The notes beneath the pieces are model-generated. The model searched no databases, had not been told where the DNA came from, and saw only the letters and a list, made by a program, of their open reading frames with translations. A stretch of 64,000 nucleotides of DNA from Mustelus asterias (taxonomy: Eukaryota). The position numbers and the translations under genes were made by a program. This document shows, piece by piece, positions 5,772 through 50,943 of the stretch. The first letter of the stretch is position 1; each line of letters starts with the position of its first letter. The stretch lies in the NCBI RefSeq assembly GCF_964213995.1, contig NC_135814.1, positions 9,300,001 through 9,364,000 on the forward strand, read 5' to 3'.

Positions 5772-6092
5772 GGGCAGCACGGTGGCACAGTGGTTAGCAC
5801 TGCTGCCTCACAGCGCCAGGGACCCGAGTTCAATTCCTGGCTCGGGTCACTGTCTATGTGGAGTTTGCACATTCTCCTCGTGTCTGCGTGGGTTTCCTCC
5901 GGGTGCTCCGGTTTTCTCCCACAGTCCAAAGATGTGCAGGTTAGGTTGATTGGCCATGCTAAATTGCCACTTAGTGTCGGGGGACTAGCAGGGTAAATGT
6001 GTGGGGCTATGGGCTAGGGTCTGGATGGGATTGTGGTCGGTGTTGACTTGATGGGCCGAATGGCCTCCTTCTACACTGTAGGGGGCTTCTAT
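5772..6092 (+). mobile_element. HE1-type V-SINE
   Basis: Full head, core and tail. Confidence 0.9.
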
Positions 6093-18729: not shown

Positions 18730-21700
18730 AGGAAAGGAAAGAGGGGGGGGGGAAAGAGGGCAGAGGGGGGGGGAAAGAGGGCAGAGGGGGGGGGAAAGAG
18801 GGCAGAGGGGGGGGGAAAGAGGGCAGAGGGGGGGAAAGAGGGCAGAGGGGGGGGGAAAGAGGGCAGAGGGGGGGGGAAAGAGGGCAGAGGGGGGGGAAAG
18901 AGGGCAGAGGGGGGGGGAAAGAGGGCAGGGGGGGGGAAAGAGGGCGGGGGGGGAAAGAGGGCGGGGGGGGAGAGGGCGGGGGGGAAAGGGCGGGGGGGAA
19001 AGGGCGGGGGGGAAAGGGCGGGGGGGAAAGGGCGGGGGGGGAAGGGCGGGGGGGGAAAGGGCGCGGGGGGAAAGGGCAGCGGGGAAAGGGCAGCGGGGGA
19101 AAGGGCAGCGGGGGAAAGGGCAGCGGGGGAAAGGGCGGGGAAAGGGCGGGGGGGAATGGGCGGGGGGGAATGGGCGGGGGGGGAAAGGGCGGGGGGGGAA
19201 GGGGCGGGGGGGAATGGGCGGGGGGGAATGGGCGGGGGGAATGGGCGGGGGGGAAAGGGCGGGGGGGAAAGGGCGGGGGGGAAAGGGCGGGGGGGAAGGG
19301 CGGGGGGGGAAAGGGCGGGGGGGGAAAGGGCGGGGGGGAAAGGGCGGGGGGGGAAAGGGCGGGGGGGGAAAGGGCGGGGGGGGAAAGGGCGGGGGGGAAA
19401 GGGCGGGGGGGGAAAGGGCGGGGGGGAAAGGGCGGGGGGGGAAAGGGCGGGGGGGGAAAGGGCGGGGGGGAAAGGGCGGGGGGGGAAAGGGCGGGTGGGG
19501 AAAGGGCGGGTGGGGAAAGGGCGGGGTGGGGAAAGGGCGGGGGGGAAAGGGCGGGGGGGGAAAGGGCGGGGGGGGAAAGGGCGGGGGGGGAAAGGGCGGG
19601 GGGGGAAAGGGCGGGGGGGGAAAGGGCGGGGGGGGAAAGGGCGGGGGGGGAAAGGGCGGGGGGGGAAAGGGCGGGGGGGGAAAGGGCGGGGGGGGAAAGG
19701 GCGGGGGGGTAAAGGGCGGGGGGGTAAAGGGCGGGGGGGTAAAGGGCGGGGGGGTAAAGGGCGGGGGGGTAAAGGGCGGGGGGGAAAGGGCGGGGGGAAA
19801 GGGCGGGGGGGAAAGGGCGGGGGGGAAAGGGCGGGGGGGGAAAGGGCGGGGGGGAAGGGGCGGGGGGGAAAGGGCGGGGGGGGAAAGGGCGGGGGGGGAA
19901 AGGGCGGGGGGGGAAAGGGCGGGGGGGGAAAGGGCGGGGGGGAAAGGGCGGGGGGGAAAGGGCGGGGGGGGAAAGGGCGGGGGGGAAAGGGCGGGGGGGA
20001 AAGGGCGGGGGGGAAAGGGGGGGGGGAAAGGGCGGGGGGGAAAGGGCGGGGGGGAAAGGGCGGGGGGGGAAAGGGCGGGGGGGGAAAGGGCGGGGGGGAA
20101 AGGGCGGGGGGGAAAGGCGGGGGGGAAAGGGGCGGGGGGGAAAGGGCGGGGGGAAAGGGCGGGGGGGAAAGGGCGGGGGGGAAAGGGCGGGGGGGAAAGG
20201 GCGGGGGGGAAAGGGCGGGGGGGAAAGGGCGGGGGGGGAAAGGGCGGGGGGGAAAGGGCGGGGGGGGAAAGGGCGGGGGGGGAAAGGGCGGGGGGGAAAG
20301 GGCGGGGGGGGAAAGGGCGGGGGGAAAGGGCGGGGGGGGAAAGGGCGGGGGGGGAAAGGGCGGGGGGGGAAAGGGCGGGGGGGGGAAAGGGCGGGGGGGG
20401 AAAGGGCGGGGGGGAAAGGGCGGGGGGGAAAGGGCGGGGGGGGGAAAGGGCGGGGGGGGAAAGGGCGGGGGGGGAAAGGGCGGGGGGAAAGGGCGGGGGG
20501 GAAAGGGCGGGGGGGGAAAGGGCGGGGGGGAAAGGGCGGGGGGAAAGGGCGGGGGGGAAAGGGCGGGGGGGGAAAGGGCGGGGGGGGAAAGGGCGGGGGG
20601 GGAAAGGGCGGGGGGGGAAAGGGCGGGGGGGGAAAGGGCGGGGGGGGAAAGGGCGGGGGGGAAAGGGCGGGGGGGAAAGGGCGGGGGGGAAAGGGCGGGG
20701 GGGAAAGGGCGGGGGGGAAAGGGCGGGGGGGAAAGGGCGGGGGGGAAAGGGCGGGGGGGAAAGGGCGGGGGGGAAAGGGCGGGGGGGAAAGGGCGGGGGG
20801 AAAGGGCGGGGGGGAAAGGGCGGGGGGGAAAGGGCGGGGGGGAAAGGGCGGGGGGGAAAGGGCGGGGGGAAAGGGCGGGGGGAAAGGGCGGGGGGGAAAG
20901 GGCAGAGGAGGGGGGGAAGGGCAGAGGAGGGGGGGAAGGGCAGAGGAGGGGGGAAGGGCAGAGGAGGGGGGAAAGGGCAGAGGAGGGGGGGAAAGGGCAG
21001 AGGAGGGGGGGAAAGGGCAGAGGAGGGGGGGAAAGGGCAGAGGAGGGGGGAAAGGGCAGAGGAGGGGGGGAAAGGGCAGAGGAGGGGGGAAAGGCAGAGG
21101 AGGGGGGGAAAGGGCAGAGGAGGGGGGAAAGGGCAGAGGAGGGGGGGAAAGGGCAGAGGAGGGGGGGAAAGGGCAGAGGAGGGGGGAAAGGGCAGAGGAG
21201 GGGGGGAAAGGGCAGAGGAGGGGGGGAAAGGGCAGAGGAGGGGGGGAAAGGGCAGAGGAGGGGGGGAAAGGGCAGAGGAGGGGGGGAAAGGGCAGAGGAG
21301 GGGGGGAAAGGGCAGAGGAGGGGGGGAAAGGGCAGAGGAGGGGGGGAAAGGGCAGAGGAGGGGGGGAAAGGGCAGAGGAGGGGGGGAAAGGGCAGAGGAG
21401 GGGGGGAAAGGGCAGAGGTGGGGGGGAAAGGGCAGAGGAGGGGGGGAAAGGGCAGAGGAGGGGGGGAAAGGGCAGAGGAGGGGGGAAAGGGCAGAGGAGG
21501 GGGGGAAAGGGCAGAGGAGGGGGGGGAAAGGGCAGAGGAGGGGGGAAAGGGCAGAGGAGGGGGGAAAGGGCAGAGGAGGGGGGAAAGGGCAGAGGAGGGG
21601 GGGAAAGGGCAGAGGAGGGGGGGAAAGGGCAGAGGAGGGGGGGAAAGGGCAGAGGAGGGGGGGAAAGGGCAGAGGAGGGGGGGAAAGGGCAGAGGAGGGG

Positions 21701-22290
21701 GGGAAAGGGCAGAGGAGGGGGGAAAGGGCAGAGGAGGGGGGAAAGGGCAGAGGAGGGGGAAAGGGCAGAGGAGGGGGGGAAAGGGCAGAGGAGGGGGGAA
21801 AGGGCAGAGGAGGGGGGAAAGGGCAGAGGAGGGGGGGAAAGGGCAGAGGAGGGGGGAAAGGGCAGAGGAGGGGGGGAAAGGGCAGAGGAGGGGGGGAAAG
21901 GGCAGAGGAGGGGGGGAAAGGGCAGAGGAGGGGGGGAAAGGGCAGAGGAGGGGGGGAAAGGGCAGAGGAGGGGGGGAAAGGGCAGAGGAGGGGGGAAAGG
22001 GCAGAGGGAGGGGGGAAAGGGCAGAGGAGGGGGGGAAAGGGCAGAGGAGGGGGGGAAAGGGCAGAGGAGGGGGGAAAGGGCAGAGGAGGGGGGAAAGGGC
22101 AGAGGAGGGGGGAAAGGGCAGAGGAGGGGGGGAAAGGGCAGAGGAGGGGGGGAAAGGGCAGAGGAGGGGGGGAAAGGGCAGAGGAGGGGGGGAAAGGGCA
22201 GAGGAGGGGGGGAAAGGGCAGAGGAGGGGGGGAAAGGGCAGAGGAGGGGGGAAAGGGCAGAGGAGGGGGGAAAGGGCAGAGGAGGGGGGG
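18730..22290 (+). repeat. G-rich tandem array in three domains: GGGCAGAG(n)AAAGA, GGGCG(n)AAA, GGGCAGAGGAG(n)AAA
   Basis: Directly visible ~14-21 nt units, nearly all purine on the plus strand. Confidence 0.98.
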
Positions 22291-33516: not shown

Positions 33517-34022
33517 GCACAGCAAGAAGTCTCACAACACCAGGTTAAAGTCCAACAGGTTTATTTGGTAGCACGAGCCTTCGGAGCGTTGCCACTTCAT
33601 CAGGTGAGTCTCATCGGGGGACTCACTTGATAAAGGGGCAGCACTCCCGAAAGCTCATGACACCAACTAAACCTGTTGGACTTTAACCTAGTGTTGTGAG
33701 ACCTCTTACTGTGCCTACCCCTTTAAATTGAGGGGGGGTAGTTATAGAACCGATGTCAGGGGTAGGTTCTTTACCCAGAGGGTGGTGAGGGATTGGAATG
33801 CCCTGCCAGCATCAGTTGTAAATGCGCCTAGTTTGGGGGCGTTTAAGAGATCCGTAGATAGGTTCATGGACGAAAAGAAATTGGTTTAGGTTGGAGGGTC
33901 ACAGTTTTTTTTTTTCTTAACTGGTCGGTGCAACATCGTGGGCCGAAGGGCCTGTTCTGCGCTGTAATGTTCTATGTTCTATGTTCTATGTACCCCGGTC
34001 CAACGTCAGCATCTCCACATCA
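33517..34022. mobile_element. Palindromic Penelope-like insert (family A), interrupted by a CR1 3' end at 33722-33990
   Basis: Inverted arms ...aggttaaagtccaacaggtttatttggt / ...aaacctgttggactttaacct; near-direct flanks tgtcttgaggttcg / tgtctgaggttcg; the CR1 piece is flanked by tacccc/tacccc. Confidence 0.8.
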
Positions 34023-34084
34023 TGTCTGAGGTTCGTAACTGCTTCACAAGATTGCCCGCTTTCCACTGTGCCTGAGACCAAACT

Positions 34085-34925
34085 CTCGCATGCTCAACAT
34101 GGGCAGGAATGTCCAGGCATTACAACATGCTGCTGTGCAGAGGGACCTGGGGGTCCTTGTGCATGAGACTCAAAAACCCAGTCTGCAGGTGCAACAGGTG
34201 ATCAAGAAGGCAAATGGGTGTTGGCCTATATCGCAAGGGGGATGGAATATAAAAGCAGAGATGTCTTGCTGCATCTGTAAGAAGTCTCACAACACCAGGT
34301 TAAAGTCCAACAGGTTTATTTGGTAGCAAATACCATCTGTACAGGGCATTGGTGAGGCTGCAGCTGGAATACTGTGTGCAGTATTGGTCCCCTTATTTGC
34401 GGAAGGATATATTGGCCTTGGAGGGAGTGCAGAGAAGGTTCACCAGGTTGATACCAGAGATGAGGGGTGTTGATTATGAGGAGAGACTGAGCAGATTGGG
34501 TTTGTATTCGTTGGAATTTAGACGGCTATGGGGGGATCTTATAGAGACCTATAAGATAATGAAGGGGATGGATAGGGTAGAGATGGAGAGATTCTTTCCA
34601 CTTAGAAAGGAAACTAGAACTAGAGGGCACAGCCTCAAAATAAAGGGGGGTCAGTTTCGGACAGATTTGAGGAGGAACTTCTTCTCTCAGAGGGTGGTGA
34701 ATCTCTGGAATTCTCTGCCCACTGAAGTGGTGGAGGCTACCTCGTTGAATATGTTTAAATCACGGATAGATGGATTCCTGATTGGTAAGGGAATTAGGGG
34801 TTATAGGGATCAGGCGGGTAAGTGGAACTGATCCACTTCAGATCAGCCATGATCTTATTGAATGGCGGGGCAGGCTCGAGGGGCTAGATGGCCTACTCCT
34901 GCTCCTATTTCTTATGTTCTTATTA
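34085..34925 (+). mobile_element. CR1 3' fragment with a one-armed Penelope family A insert at 34280-34333
   Basis: ORF 34349..34831 is a CR1 RT C-terminus; the insert is flanked by catctgta/catctgta. Confidence 0.88.
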
Positions 34926-42845: not shown

Positions 42846-44224
42846 CTAAGGAGACAGTGAACATGATGACCAAGAAAAAGCAAGTCAATATTTAATACAT
42901 TGGAAAGCAGTGCATCAGAGGTGGGAGAAAAGGCAAGTGAAGCCTATAGGTTTGTAGAGAAATGTAGTACAAAAACAGAACGTTCGAGTGTAGGACGGAG
43001 GTCGTGCTGCACTGTCAAGAGTTGAACATCATTTGGTAAAGGCAATAAACAGAGCTGCTTGCTGAGGTGGACTCAAAAGATTCCCTTGGTGTTATCTGGA
43101 GAGAGTCCTGGCCATCACCTCTTATTCCTCACCCAATACTTGTGAAACAGAATGCATGGTCATTTACTATACTGCTACTGGTGTCCAAATTAGATGCTAC
43201 ATTTGCCCGCAGCAGAAAGTGTTCACACTTGGGGTGGGGAGGAAATCCAATTGGATGCGAGACAGCTTTAGGATATCCCGAGGAGATGAAAGCGATGCTA
43301 TTAAAAAATGCAAACTCTTACTTGGAAAAATTACATTGCAAAACACGTTTCCATGTTTTTTCTCTCTGCAGCCAGACGGACTTACTGTGAGGGGAAAAAA
43401 GTCCAGCACGTCACAGGCTGCTTTGCCCCAAATGGATCAACAGATACCCCTGCTCAAAGTAAAGACTCAATTATTTTTGAACACTCATGCTGATGTTTGC
43501 ATTGGACGCTCAAAAGTGCTCACCTTACCATTAAAAAAAGGCAAACAGAACCCCTCTCCTTGGCCACCACTCATAAGACTGTAAGTGTCCTGGGTGTAAT
43601 CAGTGCAAGAACACGCCTTGTGTGTGTATACGTGAGGTTGACTGCGTGCAGCACTGATATTTTTGACTCGGGATTTATGTTTGAAATTGGGTGCGTTGGG
43701 GGAAAGTGGGACCAGATTGGAGGGACAAACACAAGGAGGATAAAACACGAACATGTACTAGCTGTGTAGGGCTTCAGGCTCTAGAATCCGGTGTTTGGGA
43801 AACTTGCGTTCACAAAGAAATAGCAGGTATTAAAATTGCTCCAGCTCTACCTTCGGATGATACCTCAAGATGATCTCCTCACACCACCTGTATTTAACCT
43901 GCTATTCTTGTCCATTCCAGGACAGGGAGGGTGCAAAGCACCACAAGCTGTTCCAGGAGGAATACAATGCTTTCTATATTTTATTTGCCTATTTTTATTC
44001 CTCTCTGTGACCAGCAGGAAGGAAGAGTAAAAATAGCAAAGATAGTGCTGGCTACAACATCGCTAATGTTCCAGTAAAACCATGGCATTTGACCAGCAGT
44101 AAAACATCTCTGGAATATGCATGTGGGAAAGACAAACCTTGGAAAACTGCCTTGTCTTTATGTTCAATATGACCTTGAGAAAGATCAAGCCTACTGATAC
44201 CTACATAGTTTCCTGGCTTTAACC

Positions 44225-44810
44225 ACTTCCTGTTCACAATGGACATCCAATCCCTCTGCACTGTTACCTCCATTCCCGATGTGGAGATGCCGGCGTTGGA
44301 CTGGGGTAAACACAGTAAGAGTTTTAACACCACCAGGTTAAAGTCCAACAGGTTTATTTGGTAGCAAATACCATTATATACCAAATAAACCTGTTGGACT
44401 TTAACCTGGTGTTGTTAAAACTCTTACTGTGTTTACCTCCATTCACCTCATGAGGATGGTCACAGAGTCCTCTGCTTCTCCCTCAAACTGAGTCCCAACC
44501 ACCACCCTCTTCGGGGCTGAGCTTGTTCTCAATCTGAACAATTCCTTCAACTCCACTCACTTCCTCCATGGATACCTACATGGGTCCCAGCCTTTTTATG
44601 GGCTAAGTGGAACATACATTGTTCCAGTCCTACTCTATTACAGACCTCCGCCTTTATTTTTCCTAAACCCTCCCCTCTTCCACATGCTTAGAAACTCTTA
44701 CATTTCTTCAGTTCTGATGAAAAGGACAATGACCTGAAATGTTAAATGTTTCTCTCTCCACAGATGTTGCAGACCTGATTTTTTTTCCCCAGCATTTTTG
44801 GATCTTAAAA
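44225..44810 (+). mobile_element. Degraded Penelope-like RT fragment plus hammerhead-bearing terminus (family B), interrupted by a family A palindrome at 44278-44436
   Basis: Translated remnants FLFTMDIQSL, AELVLNLNN and TYMGPS resemble PLE RT; ctgatga...gaaatgtt near 44713; the family A insert is flanked by ttacctccattc on both sides. Confidence 0.7.
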
Positions 44811-44942
44811 ATAGAGCCAAACATCTTTTGTAAAACTAGATTTGTTTGGAAATTTAATGGGCAAATGGCCAAATATTTTAATTCAAAAATTTATGCAGGC
44901 CATACTTTTACATCATTATGTTTTCTGTGTCTGTCTGAAGCA

Positions 44943-45220
44943 GTAAAGTTAAGTTTATTTATTAGTCACAAGTAAGGCTTACATTAACATTGCAATGAAG
45001 TTACTGTGAAAACCCCCTAGTCGCCACATTCCAGCACCTGTTCGGGTCAATGCACCCAACCAGCGCGTCTTTCAGATTATGGGAGGAAACCAGAGCACCC
45101 GGAGGAAACCCACGCAGACACGGGGAGAATGTGCAAACTCCACATAGACAGTGACCCAAGCTGGGAATTGAACCCGGGTGCCTGGCACTGTGAGACAGCA
45201 GTGCTAACCACCGCCACTAC
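44943..45220 (-). mobile_element. V-SINE, tail type 2
   Basis: Reverse-complement pattern. Confidence 0.85.
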
Positions 45221-45969
45221 GTAAGCTTGCACCTTACTTGAGATAAGTCTTGCACGCTGGTTACTTCCAGTTTGCTATGATATATTCATACTTGAACTCA
45301 AGACACCCGCATGTCACATTGCATGTGTGCCCGTGGTGCTCAGCACCCTCTCGGTTTTGGAGACTAACAGATTATATACAGTTTAAGTGAAATGACACAT
45401 CTTGATGGGCCAAGAGTTGCATCAGAGTAGACCTGCAGCAATTTTAATATTTGCTATTTCTTTATGTCCCAAGCTCAGAGAATTCTCGAGCCCCAAGTCA
45501 CACATAGCTATTACATGTCTGTTTCAAGTATTAAATTCCACTGTATCCCAAACACTACCTAAAGTATGCGAAAATGTATTCAATGGCAACAGGATGTAGC
45601 ACTTGGGGCGAATGGGATCAAAGGTTATGGGGAAAAAGCAAGATTAGGCCATTGAGTTGGATGGTCAGCCATGATTGTAACGAATGGCTGAGCAGATTCG
45701 AAGGGCCAAATGACCTCCTCCTGCTCCTACCTTATGCTTCTAAGAGTTGAACTGTTTTAAGGGGATACATCGTACTTGGGAAGGGAAAAAAAGACTTTTA
45801 TATACCAATCATATCCCTTGAATTGCCCAGAGCAAGAGACATGTAATGAATTACTACAAATGCAATAACTCTTGCCATATAGGGAAGCCAAGGCAGCCAG
45901 TTTGTACATAGCAAGATCTCAGGAACAATTCCAAAGATGTGCGGGTTAGGTTAATTTACCATGGGAAGG

Positions 45970-46300
45970 ATCACCAAAGATCCTTAGACAGCACCTTCCA
46001 AACCTACGATCACTTCCATCTGGAAGGACAAGGGCAGCAGATACATGGGAACACCACCACCTGCAAGTTCCCCTCCAAGCCACTCACCATCCTGACTTGG
46101 AAATACAGTGCCATTCCTTTGCAGTCACTGGGTCAAAATACTGGAATTCCCTCCCTAACGGCATTGTGGGTCAACCCACAGCACGTGGACTGCAGCGATT
46201 CAAGAAGATAGCTCACCACCACCTTCTCAAGGGCATCTAGGGATGGGAAATAAATACTGGCCAGCCAGCGAAGCCCATGCCCCAGGAATGAATATTTTTT
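45970..46300 (+). mobile_element. Zenon-like LINE 3' fragment inserted in an HE1 tail remnant (~45934-46435)
   Basis: gggaacaccaccacctgcaagttcccctccaag... followed by the family tail; HE1 tail sequence on both sides. Confidence 0.8.
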
Positions 46301-47069
46301 TAAAAATTACCCCTTAGTGTCAGGGTAAATTTGCATGGTAAATACACGGGGTTACGGGTATTGGGCCTGAGTGGGATTGACGTCGGTGCCGGCTCGATGG
46401 GCTGAATAGCCTCCTTCTGCTTTGTCGGGATTCTCTGAATCAGATGAATAGTCAGTTAATCATTTTTTGGTTGTGTTGGAAGCTGTGTCAAAAGCATCTC
46501 CACCCAAAAAACATCAGAAAACACCTTCCATCGAACCTGTGGTTCCTGTAGAGCCAGAAAAGAAGGTGGGACACCAGCACCTCAGACTTGAAAAGACCTG
46601 CTCAATGCACAAGCCATCGATCTGTTGCTTGGCGACTGGCACCCTTCCTGCTCCTGGGTGCCAGATACAGGTCGAGGGGAAAAGAAAAGCACCAAATACT
46701 GGAAATCCAACAGTAAAAACACAATTCTGCTGAAGGGGTTACACTCGAAACTCACAGCTTCCTCTTTCAACTGCTGACCAATATTCTGTGCATGTCCACC
46801 AGTGCTTTCTATTTTTATTGCAAAGAAAAGCTTTGCGTATTTTGCTTCTGGCTGTGAAATGCTCTTCCCACTCTGTGTTGTCCTTGGATCTCTGCCCCTT
46901 ACACATTGCAGCTTGAATGACGAGGATCTGCAGAATCAGGGTTATGCAGCTTACACTGATCTATCAGAAAATCTATCACTTGCGCCTTGATGGACCGGCC
47001 CATTAACCGGCACGGTTAAGATTTTTAGGGCATTATTCCCATTGGTGTAATCTCTCCTCCCATGGGGTT

Positions 47070-47590
47070 ATCATAGAGTCATAGAGGATTACAGCATATA
47101 AACAGGCCCTTCGGCCCAACTTGTCCATGCCATCATTTTTTTTTAAACCACTAAGCTATTCCCAATTGCTTGCATTTGGCCCATATCCCTCTATACCCAA
47201 ATTACCCATGTAACTGTCTAAATGCTTTTTAAAAGACAAAATTGTACCCGCCTCTACTACTGCCTCTGGCAGCTTGTTCCAGACACTCATCACCATCTGT
47301 GAGAAAAAATTGCCCCTCTGGACCATTTCGTATCTCTCCCACCTCACCTTAAACCTATGCCCTCTAGTTTTAGACTCCCCTACCTTTGGGAAAAGATATT
47401 GACTATCTAGTTGGTCTATGCCCCTCATTATTTTATAGACCACTATAAGGTCACCCCTAAGTCTCCCATGCTCCAGGGAAAAGAGTCCCAGTCTATCCAG
47501 CCTCTCCTTATAGCTCAAGCCATCAGGTTCCGGTAGCATCCGAGTAAATCTTTTCTGCACTCTTTCTAGTTTAATAATATCCTTTCTATA
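47070..47590 (-). mobile_element. CR1 3' fragment
   Basis: ORF 47156..47614 contains KLERVQKRFTRML. Confidence 0.88.
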
Positions 47591-47599
47591 ACAGTTGGG

Positions 47600-48280
47600 G
47601 GAAAAAACATGCATTTATACATGCCCCAGGCTGCCCAAAAGTGCTTTTCGACCAACAGACCTCTTTTGAAGTGTAGTCACTGTTGTGATGTAAGAAATGC
47701 AGTAAATTACACACAGCGAGTTCTCACAAACAGCAATGACCAGCTAGTGTGCTTTTAGGTGTTGGCTGAGGGATAAATATCAGTAAGAAGTTTAACACCA
47801 CCAGGTTAAAGTCCAACAGGTTTATTTGGTAGCAAAAGCCACACAAGCTTTCGGAGCTGCAAGCCCCTTCTTCAGGTGATCACCTGAAGAAGGGGCTTGC
47901 AGCTCCGAAAGCTTGTGTGGCTTTTGCTACCAAATAAACCTGTTGGACTTTAACCTGGTGTTGTTAAACTTCTTACTGTGTTTACCCCAGTCCAACGCCG
48001 GCATCTCCACATCATGGATAAATATCAGCCAGGGCACCAGGGCCAACTCCTTTGCTTTATTTCAAATAATGTCATGGGATTTTTTACGCTCACCCAGACA
48101 GGGTCTCCTCTGTTTAACGTTCCATAAAAAGGACAGCACCCCTGACAGTACAGTGCTCCTTCAATATGCACTGGGAGCTTCATTGAGGATTGCTGGCTCA
48201 AGTCTCAGAAGTGAGCCTTAGATCTAGAACCTTCTGATTCAGAACAGTGTGTGCTACCACTGACCCAATGCTGACACACA
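47600..48280 (-). mobile_element. Deu-domain SINE (SacSINE1-like), interrupted by a Penelope family A palindrome
   Basis: Reverse complement of the Deu core (…atatttatccctcagccaac…) and of the tail (…gtgactacacttcaaaag…). Confidence 0.7.
47781..48015. mobile_element. Young palindromic Penelope-like insert (family A) with a minimal hammerhead motif on both strands
   Basis: ~99-bp arms (47781-47879 / 47880-47978) with one mismatch and no loop; ggataaatatcag is duplicated at 47771-47783 and 48016-48028; cac-CTGAAGA-stem II-GAAAGCTT-gtg. Confidence 0.88.
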
Positions 48281-48940
48281 AAACACACAACTCATTCCTG
48301 GTTGGGACTTCCGCCTTTAAAAATCTGACTTGAGTGCAAGAGCCACGATTGGCACCCAAGTCCTGAAATTGGCACCTAGATACCAGCAGATGCGCATCCT
48401 GGATTAGGCAGAGGTGCAGAAACACCAAAGTTGGACCTTTACAGCTGGATCTCCAAGATTCTAGTGACTATCTTTCCCCTGCTAGACAAGTGAAATGATT
48501 GAAATCTCTGCTGCCTGCATCCTCACACCAAGTCCAATTCAGCCACTAATATTTATTATTTATTTGTGTCACCAGCGGGCTTACCTTAACACTGAAATGA
48601 AGTTACTGTGAAAATGCCCTAGTCGCCACACTCTGGCACCTGTTCAGGTACACTGAGGGAGAATTTAGCATGGCCAATGCACCCTAACTACCCTGTATGC
48701 TTGCTGACTTGAACTTCTGGATCACCAATACCTCACATTTAAAATCCTCACCCTTGTATTCAAACCCTTCCATGTTTTCCCTCTCCCCAACTTCCAACTC
48801 CAGGCTTCATTGCCCTCCTCCAATTAAAACATCTTGTGCAACCCCCACCCCACTTCCTTCGCCCCCACCACTGGCAGCTGAGACTCTAGCTGTCTCAACC
48901 TTAAGCTCTGGAATTCCCCTTCGAACCTCTCCAGCTCTAA

Positions 48941-49683
48941 CCCAAAATGACATCAAAGGACTAACTTCCTTCCACTTCCTTTGGGCCCAAAAGTAAAAAT
49001 TCTCTTAGCCCAACCACAAAACCTATCATGGACAGCTGGAAGACATGATAAATTTCTCAACAAGTAAAATTTGAGAAGCCACGGAAATGGAGGCACAGAT
49101 ATCGCACTGCTGGCCACAGCATATCCTGTACATGCTGTACAATTTCTTGTTGAAGCTTTTGGCCACTTGTACTAATGTCTCCTCCTCCTTTGGCTGTGTG
49201 TCAACTACACTCCACGAAGGGGTGGTTCACAGCACAGAAGGTGCTGCATAAATCCGAGTTGATACACCAACTAAAATATTTAAACCTGGGCAGAATATAT
49301 ACATTTGCTATGTAATATACTGCTGTGCATGTATTTCTCGCCCTCTCCTCACCCTAAATGGCAGTCCCTGTGAAGACTGAATGAGGAAACAGTTATTCCA
49401 ATATCAAAGGAAAGGATTCATTATTCAAAGGGACCTCATGAATGTCCAAAGATTGCTTGAAATAAATTGTACAGTATGTACAGGATATGCTGGGTCAGCA
49501 GTGCGATATCTGTGCCTCCATTTCCATGGCTTCTCATATTTTACTTGTTGAGATATTTATCATGTCTTCCAGCTGTCCGGAATATGCTTTGTGGTCGGGC
49601 TTTGAACAGAGTTGAGCCGAGAGAATTCCTGCTTTAGGTCCAAGGAAGTCAAAGCAAATTTGCCCTTTGATGTAGTTTTGGGG
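48941..49683. repeat. Long inverted repeat: ~205-220 bp arms around a ~320 bp spacer
   Basis: 49030-49145 is the reverse complement of 49464-49578 with about 6 differences by manual alignment; weaker similarity extends to 48941 and 49683. Confidence 0.92.
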
Positions 49684-50072
49684 GTCTGTAAGCAGCCCCC
49701 GCCCCCACTCATCCCCTCATAGAATTGTAAACATGGACAGCAAATTGGTCAGGTTGAAGACGTAGGAGGGGGCTCGTGTGGGACATGATCGTTGACACAA
49801 ACGGCCTCTGATGAATGGCCATCATCTACTCGACAGGTTAACTGTTTCTCTACACAGGCGATGCCTCCTCTGGGGTGGAGGTTTCCTCGCAGATGAGGTC
49901 TCCTGAACATCTGCAGCATTTGGCTTTCTTGTTCGGCAGGAAGTTTAAGTTTATTTATTAGTGTCACAAGTAGGTTTGCATTAACACTGCAAAGAAGGAA
50001 CTGAGAAAAAAGTTGTTGGAGGGACACAGTTTTCCACAGAGAGTATTTACAGATTGTACTCCAAATAATGAT

Positions 50073-50396
50073 CCATAGAATCACAGAATCCCAACACTGC
50101 AGAGAGAGGCCATTCGACACATCGAGCCTGCACCGACAACAATCCCACCCAAGCCCTATCCCCGTAACTCCACATATTTACCCTTCTAATCTCCCTGACA
50201 CTAAGGGGCAATTTAGCGTGGCCAATCCACCTAACCTGCACATCTTTGGACTGTGGGAGGAAACCGGAGCACCCGGAGGAAACCTACGCAGACACAGTGA
50301 GAACATGCAAACCCCACGCAGACAGTCACCCGAGGCCAGAATTGAACCCAGACCCCTGGCGCTGTGAGGCAACAGTGCTAACCACTGCGCCACCCC
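50073..50396 (-). mobile_element. HE1-type V-SINE
   Basis: Reverse-complement pattern. Confidence 0.88.
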
Positions 50397-50943
50397 TTAA
50401 GTGACAAAGGAAGGGAAGATTCAGGCCTACGGGGTGGGGGGGGGGGGGGTGTAGTAGGAGGGTAGAGAGCTCTGTTGTGGGATTAGTTCCACGTTGTTCC
50501 AGCAAAGAGCCAGGATAGATGTATGTGAAAGATTGAACATCACCCTGCTGTGCTGCAACTCTCTGGGGCCTTGTGATTGTCTTGTTGTGACTTTGCAGTG
50601 GTTATTACTTCAGATTTTCAGCATTAAAAATTTATCTTGTAATACCGCGTCAGCATTAAATTAAAATTTCAAAATATACATTTACATTTCTTTCTCCAAA
50701 TAAAAATGAAAACCTTCCGCACGGACACACTGACCATTCCAAAAACAGTCCTTAAAAATAGAAACTATGAGTTAAAGCAAGGTCACGCTGTGCTGCATGC
50801 ATTACATGTCCTTTATGCAACGATCTACAACACTTGACAGCGTTCACATTCTCTCGTGTGCACAAACAAAATAAAGCAGCATTGTTATCACCATTGAGTA
50901 TCCCATTTCCCAGCCAAGTCCATTATCAGGAATAGTGTCAAAC

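What the first reader, a model, noticed from the sequence alone, without database searches (positions are those of the whole stretch)
47771..48028. Loop-less ~99-bp palindrome encoding a minimal hammerhead ribozyme on both strands
Seen: two ~99-nt arms meet at GGTGA|TCACC with one mismatch and are flanked by a 13-nt duplication. Each strand reads cac-CUGAAGA-a-ggggc(uugca)gcucc-GAAAGCUU-gug, i.e. stem I, catalytic core, stem II, GAAA and a self-complementary AAGCUU. Known: Penelope-like elements carry minimal type-I hammerheads in their pseudo-LTRs, which are thought to cleave as dimers, and often insert as inverted termini. Inferred: this is a young non-autonomous Penelope derivative. PDIA5 pre-mRNA would contain the ribozyme motif, but probably locked in a long hairpin (dsRNA substrate; cruciform at the DNA level).
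Basis: partly seen in the sequence, partly recalled or inferred. Interest (0 to 1): 0.7.

Follow-up and report, generated by a model that had tools for sequence, protein, structure and literature searches.

The report
Head-to-head stub of a Penelope retrotransposon
This palindrome is one of tens of thousands of insertions of a protein-coding Penelope-type jumping gene, here two short copies of its end joined head to head; the self-cutting RNA motif it carries belongs to that element and is predicted to be locked shut in this intron, although sister copies likely record real cutting elsewhere.

Summary
In detail: 99-nt arms with one mismatch and no spacer, a perfect 13-nt duplication, and a minimal hammerhead on each strand. 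The parent is an autonomous Penelope-like element (892-aa RT + GIY-YIG ORF, Neptune-type linker) with at least 61,105 tail copies. In a tail-selected sample, 71 of 96 ends have an inverted partner arm. This layout is published. Junctions vary between copies, so this is a single insertion product, not a non-autonomous family. Both arms start 2 nt inside a likely capped RNA 5' end, a hot spot for arm starts. Here the ribozyme is always transcribed after its own complement and is predicted to be locked (-197 kcal/mol). The one result beyond the papers read is family-wide: 1,594 arms begin exactly at the predicted cut, against 425 and 422 one and two bases upstream. That suggests cleaved RNA is sometimes the template. 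This locus came from uncut RNA. The scan has noted similar stubs in other genomes.

The parts
47771..47783 (+). Target-site duplication, left copy (13 nt; last 3 nt also match element positions +99 to +101)
   Evidence: a duplication of 10-14 nt was found at 44 of 64 sister insertions, none at 14, other lengths at 6
47784..47879 (-). Tail-less inverted arm, element positions +3 to +98 (to +101 with the overlap); carries the one substitution
   Evidence: of 71 partner arms listed in the sample, 63 ended between +60 and +137, and 49 of those at +98 to +105
47840..47879 (-). Minimal hammerhead motif, minus-strand copy; predicted cut between 47845 and 47844
   Evidence: cut position inferred from hammerhead numbering
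47879..47880 (.). Head-to-head junction; both arms start at +3. It equals the commonest family junction minus its central unpaired base
   Evidence: commonest junction in 14 of 50 listed loci, 16 with two point-mutated ones (hand count); table 4 shows the one-base-longer form in contigs of 2 of 4 runs
47880..48015 (+). Tail-bearing arm, element positions +3 to +138: the 5' UTR / pseudo-LTR end of the parent
   Evidence: 100% identical over 136 nt to sister copies such as L002, L013, L018; lies before and after the ORF in long copies
47881..47917 (+). Minimal type-I hammerhead: stem I 5' strand 47881-83, core CUGAAGA 47884-90, extra A 47891, stem II 47892-47906, GAAA 47907-10, palindromic AGCU, predicted cut between 47914 and 47915, stem I 3' strand 47915-17
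   Evidence: 5,197 exact genomic matches of these 37 nt
47979..48015 (+). One-sided tail (37 nt; 40 nt if the left overlap is given to the duplication), ending in the first two bases of the ORF's ATG, whose G is the first base of the right duplication
   Evidence: 61,105 exact matches of a 28-nt tail pattern
48016..48028 (+). Target-site duplication, right copy
42846..50943 (-). Host intron (GT...AG, in-frame flanking exons) of a protein-disulfide-isomerase-family gene
   Evidence: exon peptides and splice sites; a downstream exon hits PDI-family structures, best E 2.7e-7

Best explanation
It is a single, young insertion of an autonomous Penelope-like retrotransposon, made of two short copies of the element's end joined head to head, and it likely arose when the element's enzyme nicked both target strands and copied one uncut RNA twice, to its 5' end. 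Shown: the anatomy, the parent ORF, the family size, the pattern of one tailed and one tail-less arm, and that the two arms of an insertion match in length and sub-type. Inferred: +1 (about 29 nt after a TATA-like box) is a capped start site; one cDNA began at the ATG (+138) and the other near +100; both ran off near +1 and were joined with loss of 2 nt each. Predicted: on either strand the antisense arm is transcribed first, so the ribozyme arm pairs with it as it emerges and cannot fold; no second same-strand hammerhead lies in the window to form the dimer it needs. The ribozyme is a passenger here.
For: Parent: 16 of 16 loci chosen for long open frames have 910-913 aa with the arm downstream; 13 have the whole arm upstream and 3 a 5'-cut one. 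RVT_1 E 1e-9; YIDD, VVY-x10-YIG, CCHH and a C-x4-CxxC linker. Layout: 71 of 96 tail ends have an inverted arm nearby (a few of the 71 are split or unrelated pieces). One template: arm starts within 15 nt of each other in 28 of 58 pairs against 8 expected, rho 0.74; loop-II variant equal in 48 of 51 pairs against 29% expected, 23 of 25 when over 300 nt apart. Each arm type is the longer one equally often (15 and 15 of 58), which simple fold-back of the tailed cDNA cannot give. 5' end: 10 of 88 distinct arms start at -1 to +3 against 22 over the next 92 nt (p 4e-7, or 1.4e-3 against the nearest 19 nt); 770 tight junctions there against 126 at a control about 25 nt upstream; 1,030 arms start exactly at +1, and 72 of 100 listed have G before it against 38 of 100 at +38 (hand count; p 2e-6); G in 6 of 8 such arms with no partner. 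Locking: -196.9 kcal/mol, z -31.8; stem II pairing probability 7e-24 in the hairpin against 0.67 in the free arm. Literature: inverted 5'-truncated copy plus 30-40-bp tail (PMC8557442, PMC3846280, passages); two internal RT start sites and extension of both strands in vitro (PMC11167929, main text).
Against: No RNA data show the start site or a cap; the cap reading of the extra G is recalled from other retroelements and two searches found no paper. Part of the G excess comes from the partner arm (39 of 72 are TG, the palindromic junction; without rows starting with T it is 33 of 52). Most arms (56 of 88) run far upstream, so they come from the 3' copy of the repeat; a chance truncation of such arms cannot be excluded for this one locus. 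Equal sub-types could also come from one dominant source locus or later conversion between arms. The junction counts use exact patterns and so differ in sub-family coverage. Pfam GIY-YIG scored only below cut-off in one fragment (21.1 against 22.6 bits) and not in the two full ORFs.
Confidence: 0.8

Rival explanations
1. Same insertion, but the second arm was made by fold-back (self-priming) of the first cDNA or of an antisense template, not by a second target-primed cDNA.
For: Explains equal sub-types and near-symmetric junctions. Self-priming on an antisense template was proposed for rotifer Penelope junction palindromes (PMC3846280, passages). Junctions favour self-pairing words: 9 of 50 listed near the cut are centred on AAGCTT (hand count).
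Against: The tail-less arm is the longer one in 15 of 58 pairs, which fold-back of the tailed cDNA cannot produce without later loss; tail-less arms end at a fixed site near +100, as a second start site predicts (PMC11167929).
Confidence: 0.3
2. A non-autonomous palindromic mini-element or retrozyme that spreads as a unit.
For: 770 tight palindromes centred at this spot; animal retrozymes are argued to derive from Penelope pseudo-LTRs (bioRxiv 10.64898/2026.07.22.740005, abstract and part 1).
Against: Junctions differ from locus to locus and 0 of 50 listed equal this one; arm lengths form a continuum from under 100 to over 1,800 nt; no same-strand tandem of hammerheads; the promoter-like sequence upstream of +1 is absent from this copy.
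Confidence: 0.05
3. The ribozyme is active or has been co-opted in the host intron.
For: Core intact and in the pre-mRNA of the host gene.
Against: The complement precedes it on both strands; hairpin -196.9 kcal/mol against -9.5 for stems I and II alone; even two free arms prefer a -32.5 dimer to the -18.1 double hammerhead. Published minimal Penelope hammerheads showed no monomer cleavage (PMC4209133) or needed the element's protein (PMC11167929).
Confidence: 0.03

Closest known systems
Endonuclease-bearing Penelope-like elements with an inverted 5'-truncated pLTR, one-sided tail and junction palindrome (Adineta vaga Pen2/Pen3a, PMC3846280; general scheme in PMC8557442)
   Same: Head-to-head inverted copy, 30-40-bp tail on one side only, target duplication, palindrome at the junction, single RT + GIY-YIG ORF in the parent.
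   Different: Here both arms are cut to about 100 nt, so the whole insert is the palindrome; the family is very large (at least 61,105 tails).
Minimal hammerheads of metazoan Penelope-like elements (PMC4209133)
   Same: Conserved core, extra nucleotide after position 9, G10.1-C11.1 pair, palindromic 15.2-16.2 with no helix III; that paper also notes pairs on opposite strands about 100-700 bp apart.
   Different: Helix I is only 3 bp here (4-5 bp in their Schistosoma families) and helix II 6 bp; spacing between the opposite-strand pair is zero.
Poseidon element PAc of Anolis (PMC11167929)
   Same: Two adjacent internal RT start sites bracketing the tail; both target strands cut and extended; hammerhead in the pLTR-ORF region.
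   Different: In PAc the ORF starts inside the ribozyme and RT starts over 100 nt into the ORF; here the ribozyme lies 100 nt before the ATG and the tail ends at the ATG. The parent here has the Neptune/Nematis-type zinc linker. PAc RNA-seq showed no read ends at the cut, whereas 1,594 genomic arms here start at it.
Animal non-LTR retrozymes (bioRxiv 10.64898/2026.07.22.740005)
   Same: Non-coding, type-I hammerhead, Penelope-related.
   Different: Defined by head-to-tail tandem units each with a hammerhead; this is a single head-to-head pair.

Membership tests
EN+ Penelope-like element | Single ORF with RT and C-terminal GIY-YIG endonuclease linked to this repeat | tested here: met
   892 aa from the first Met; RVT_1 E 1e-9; VVY-x10-YIG and CCHH by motif; Pfam GIY-YIG only below cut-off
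EN+ Penelope-like element | Direct pseudo-LTRs flanking the ORF | tested here: met
   whole arm on both sides in 13 of 16 loci, 5'-cut upstream arm in 3; unit length 3,021 nt
EN+ Penelope-like element | Inverted 5'-truncated copy and 30-40-bp tail on one side | tested here: met
   this locus and 71 of 96 sampled ends
EN+ Penelope-like element | Target-site duplication | tested here: met
   13 of 13 nt here; 10-14 nt in 44 of 64 sisters
Neptune/Nematis clade | CX2-5CxxC linker upstream of GIY-YIG | tested here: met
   C-x4-CxxC at residue 754, 37 residues before the GIY-YIG motif (feature from PMC8557442 passages)
Neptune/Nematis clade | Placement in an RT tree | not tested
   no reference sequences were fetched
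Minimal type-I hammerhead of metazoan PLEs | Core CUGANGA / GAAA / UH conserved across copies | tested here: met
   175 arms picked by flanks alone: core columns 165-174 of 175, N7 free (A 90, C 46, T 36). The 3' flank used as anchor is equally constant, so the contrast is with stems and loops only.
Minimal type-I hammerhead of metazoan PLEs | Covarying helices I and II; extra base after position 9; palindromic stem III | tested here: met
   of 254 arms with intact core: stem I pair 1 C-G 204 / U-A 38; stem II pair 3 G-U 148 / A-U 71 / G-C 35; extra A 253; GCU 247. These are a few lineage changes, not many independent ones.
Minimal type-I hammerhead of metazoan PLEs | Helix I of 4-5 bp | tested here: not met
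   3 bp in this sub-family (pair 4 is U-U in 163 of 254); 4 bp in the second sub-family
Minimal type-I hammerhead of metazoan PLEs | Self-cleavage as a dimer or with protein | not testable with these tools
   only indirect: arm starts at the predicted cut
Rfam hammerhead families | Covariance-model hit | tested here: not met
   no hammerhead family listed at E<=5 or E<=10
Non-LTR retrozyme | At least two head-to-tail units each with a hammerhead | tested here: not met
   one motif per strand in the window
Non-autonomous family spreading as a unit | Many copies with the same internal structure | tested here: not met
   0 of 50 listed tight palindromes share this junction (50 of 770 loci were shown)
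microRNA precursor | Rfam score above the family threshold | tested here: not met
   mir-607 67.6 bits against 94; reflects pairing only

The most novel reading that the evidence does not exclude
The tens of thousands of head-to-head stubs are a genomic run-off map of the element's RNA: one RNA is copied twice by a dimeric enzyme, and arms stop at its two natural 5' ends, the capped start (+1) and the hammerhead cut (+38). The cliff at +38 would be in vivo evidence that a minimal Penelope hammerhead cleaves inside the retrotransposition complex and that the cut RNA is inserted.
Probability: 0.45. Interest if true: 0.6.

Novelty: new member of a known kind. Interest (0 to 1): 0.25.

Why it matters
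The locus itself is ordinary: a known insertion layout of a very abundant Penelope-like family, probably inert apart from adding a 99-bp hairpin to an intron. The value is in the family. Whether minimal Penelope hammerheads cleave in vivo is open: one paper reports low in vitro activity and no in vivo evidence (PMC4209133), another found cleavage dispensable in vitro and no RNA ends at the cut (PMC11167929). The family-wide step in arm starts at the predicted cut, and the match between the two arms of an insertion, make both this question and the origin of inverted pseudo-LTRs testable from genome sequence alone.

Tried and rejected
A DNA search of the genome with the arm returned nothing because common words are skipped; patterns were used instead. 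Rfam gave only sub-threshold microRNA and small-RNA hits. The ORF has no solved relative at E<=0.01. My first idea, that the inverted arm has a fixed length, was rejected: both arms vary from under 100 to over 1,800 nt. The count for arms starting at +39 (4,267) is unusable as it stands, because 90 of 100 listed rows belong to a variant with a 2-nt deletion. A scripted test of the cut site in a second sub-family mislabelled palindromic cases; read by eye about 5 of 50 arms start within 2 nt of the cut, and in the first sub-family only 1 of 40 tail-selected arms does, so small samples neither confirm nor deny the step. Sequencing runs: no RNA holder listed; contigs laid on the locus and on an intact 5' region show sub-family variants, bridge neither flank by 31 letters, and cannot show starts, editing or expression. 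Searches for a paper on sharks plus Penelope plus hammerhead, on twin priming or cut-site truncation in Penelope elements and on cap-derived G found none in the listings; the library lacks most subscription papers and no supplements were read, including Fig. S2 of PMC11167929, which bears on copy ends.

Full report
Observation. The two arms (47781-47879 and 47880-47978) are 99 nt, abut with no spacer and differ at one position. A 13-nt duplication flanks the insert (47771-47783, 48016-48028). The hammerhead-like pattern occurs once on each strand and nowhere else in the window, against 0.10 expected.

Family and parent. The window lies in a 3.68-Gb genome. The 37-nt ribozyme motif has 5,197 exact matches and a 28-nt tail pattern has 61,105. 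A widely spaced pair (L031) held a 709-aa frame with an RT domain. A protein search with part of it listed 150 scored matches of 6,529 candidates. I fetched 16 with the longest-looking frames; all 16 have 910-913 aa open, with the arm downstream, and 13 have the whole arm upstream too (two of the 16 look like duplicates). The ORF is 892 aa from the first Met and has RT, GIY-YIG, CCHH and C-x4-CxxC motifs. The last is described for Neptune and Nematis elements (PMC8557442, passages); I built no tree. The arm is the element's 5' UTR and pseudo-LTR end, and its tail stops at the ATG. The repeat resembles shark Penelope ends as I recall them; no call named the organism.

Numbering. +1 is the A of ACTCACC, 29 nt after a TATA-like box in intact copies. 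The predicted cut falls between +37 and +38 and the ATG is +137 to +139. Both arms of this locus start at +3, so both contain the uncut ribozyme.

Layout of insertions. From the first 100 tail matches I fetched the first 96 or so and analysed 96 distinct ends; 71 have an inverted arm nearby (a loose rule that admits a few split pieces). Tail-less arms end mostly at +98 to +105, and duplications are mostly 10-14 nt. This is the published arrangement: inverted 5'-truncated copy, one-sided tail, junction palindrome (PMC8557442 and PMC3846280, passages). It also fits the two internal RT start sites and extension of both target strands shown in vitro (PMC11167929, parts 1-2 of 4 and passages). The two arms of an insertion are not independent: starts lie within 15 nt in 28 of 58 pairs (8 expected; the 58 exclude edge cases and tandem ends), and the loop-II variant agrees in 48 of 51 pairs (29% expected). 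Either arm can be the longer (15 and 15). I infer one RNA copied twice; one dominant source locus or later conversion could also give the match.

Why the centre is here. Among 88 distinct arms that reach +4 (from the 100 places listed; identical contexts collapse), 10 start at -1 to +3, 22 over the next 92 nt and 56 run further. Tight junctions number 770 at this spot and 126 at a control about 25 nt upstream. Genome-wide 1,030 arms start exactly at +1; by hand count 72 of 100 listed have G before it, against 38 of 100 at +38. Some of these G come from the partner arm, but 33 of 52 remain without rows starting with T, and 6 of 8 partnerless arms have it. I read this as a copied cap, from recollection of other retroelements. 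By hand count of the 50 loci listed, 14 share one junction (16 with two point-mutated ones) and none equals ours, which is that junction minus its central base. The locus is therefore best read as a one-off product, not a spreading unit.

The ribozyme. It matches the minimal hammerhead of metazoan Penelope-like elements (PMC4209133, parts 1-2 of 4): intact core, extra A, G-C closing pair, palindromic AGCU in place of helix III. In 175 arms picked by flanks alone the core is nearly constant while N7, stems and loop vary, and stem I pair 1 switches from C-G to U-A between sub-families. Helix I is only 3 bp in this sub-family and Rfam models do not detect the motif. At this locus it should be silent. 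The insert lies in intron 42846-50943 of a minus-strand PDI-family gene (the name PDIA5 is recalled). On either strand the antisense arm is made first. The transcript folds at -196.9 kcal/mol, and stem II has a pairing probability of 7e-24 against 0.67 in a free arm.

A family-wide signal at the cut. Arms starting exactly at +38 number 1,594, against 425 at +37 and 422 at +36; chance extension from +38 would supply most of the +37 class. At +39, about 10 of 100 listed rows of 4,267 are not the deletion variant, roughly 430 if extrapolated. By hand count of the 100 arms in the 50 loci listed: 10 at +41, 20 at +40, 15 at +39, 25 at +38, 5 at +37, 4 at +36, none at +35 or +34, 2 at +33, and 19 at or past +32, nearly all in junctions centred on AAGCTT. 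In the tail-selected sample 9 of 155 arms start within 1 nt of the cut, against 11 in the other 24 nt nearby. Against this: a G shared with the partner arm makes some +38 starts ambiguous, a hairpin just there could stall or fold back the cDNA, +40 is inflated by other sub-families, no matched control site was counted, and only 1 of 40 first-sub-family arms in the unbiased sample starts near the cut. Such arms are a minority. I put in vivo cleavage as the cause at about even odds. I found no paper reporting it in the listings.

Earlier notes of the scan. A look-up by sequence found nothing. A look-up by words gave 12 findings, 8 shown, of similar stubs in other genomes. They agree on identity and are mostly sceptical of the cut-site reading; one reports arm starts 30-59 nt upstream of the cut, which fits the +1 hot spot here. 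These are unchecked notes and I take no support from them.

Verdict. A real feature and a new member of a known kind: a short head-to-head Penelope-like insertion with a locked ribozyme. Interest 0.25. The family-wide run-off pattern deserves a whole-genome test.

Noticed in passing
window 33518-33721: Older head-to-head insertion of the same family; both arms start at +1 and both have an extra G before it, with a short filler between them, so here the G is not shared with the partner.
   Followed up: partly
window 44278-44437 and 34277-34330: Two more stubs of a second sub-family whose arms start at or within 2 nt of the predicted ribozyme cut; a lone tail piece lies at 33991-34023.
   Followed up: partly
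window 48941-49682: A separate inverted repeat with arms of about 190-210 nt (80-94% complementary in three pieces) around a 312-nt spacer; no match to the Penelope reference or to any of the 285 fetched loci.
   Followed up: partly
window about 19000-22000: Strongly purine-skewed, G-rich tandem array of roughly 14-16-nt units of G runs and AAA, inside the host gene; could form G-quadruplexes or R-loops.
   Followed up: no
window 47934-47939 (+) and its mirror on the - strand: Each arm has AATAAA followed by a GU-rich stretch, a possible poly(A) signal upstream of both RT start sites; in the host pre-mRNA it would be buried in the hairpin.
   Followed up: no
L031, L184 and other intact copies, around +1 to +9 on the antisense strand: The antisense of the start region reads as a consensus splice donor; this locus has lost the base that completes it.
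   Followed up: no
L184 2784-2921 versus 5805-5941: The upstream and downstream pseudo-LTRs of one full-length copy carry different loop-II variants, suggesting the upstream repeat came from another template or changed later.
   Followed up: no
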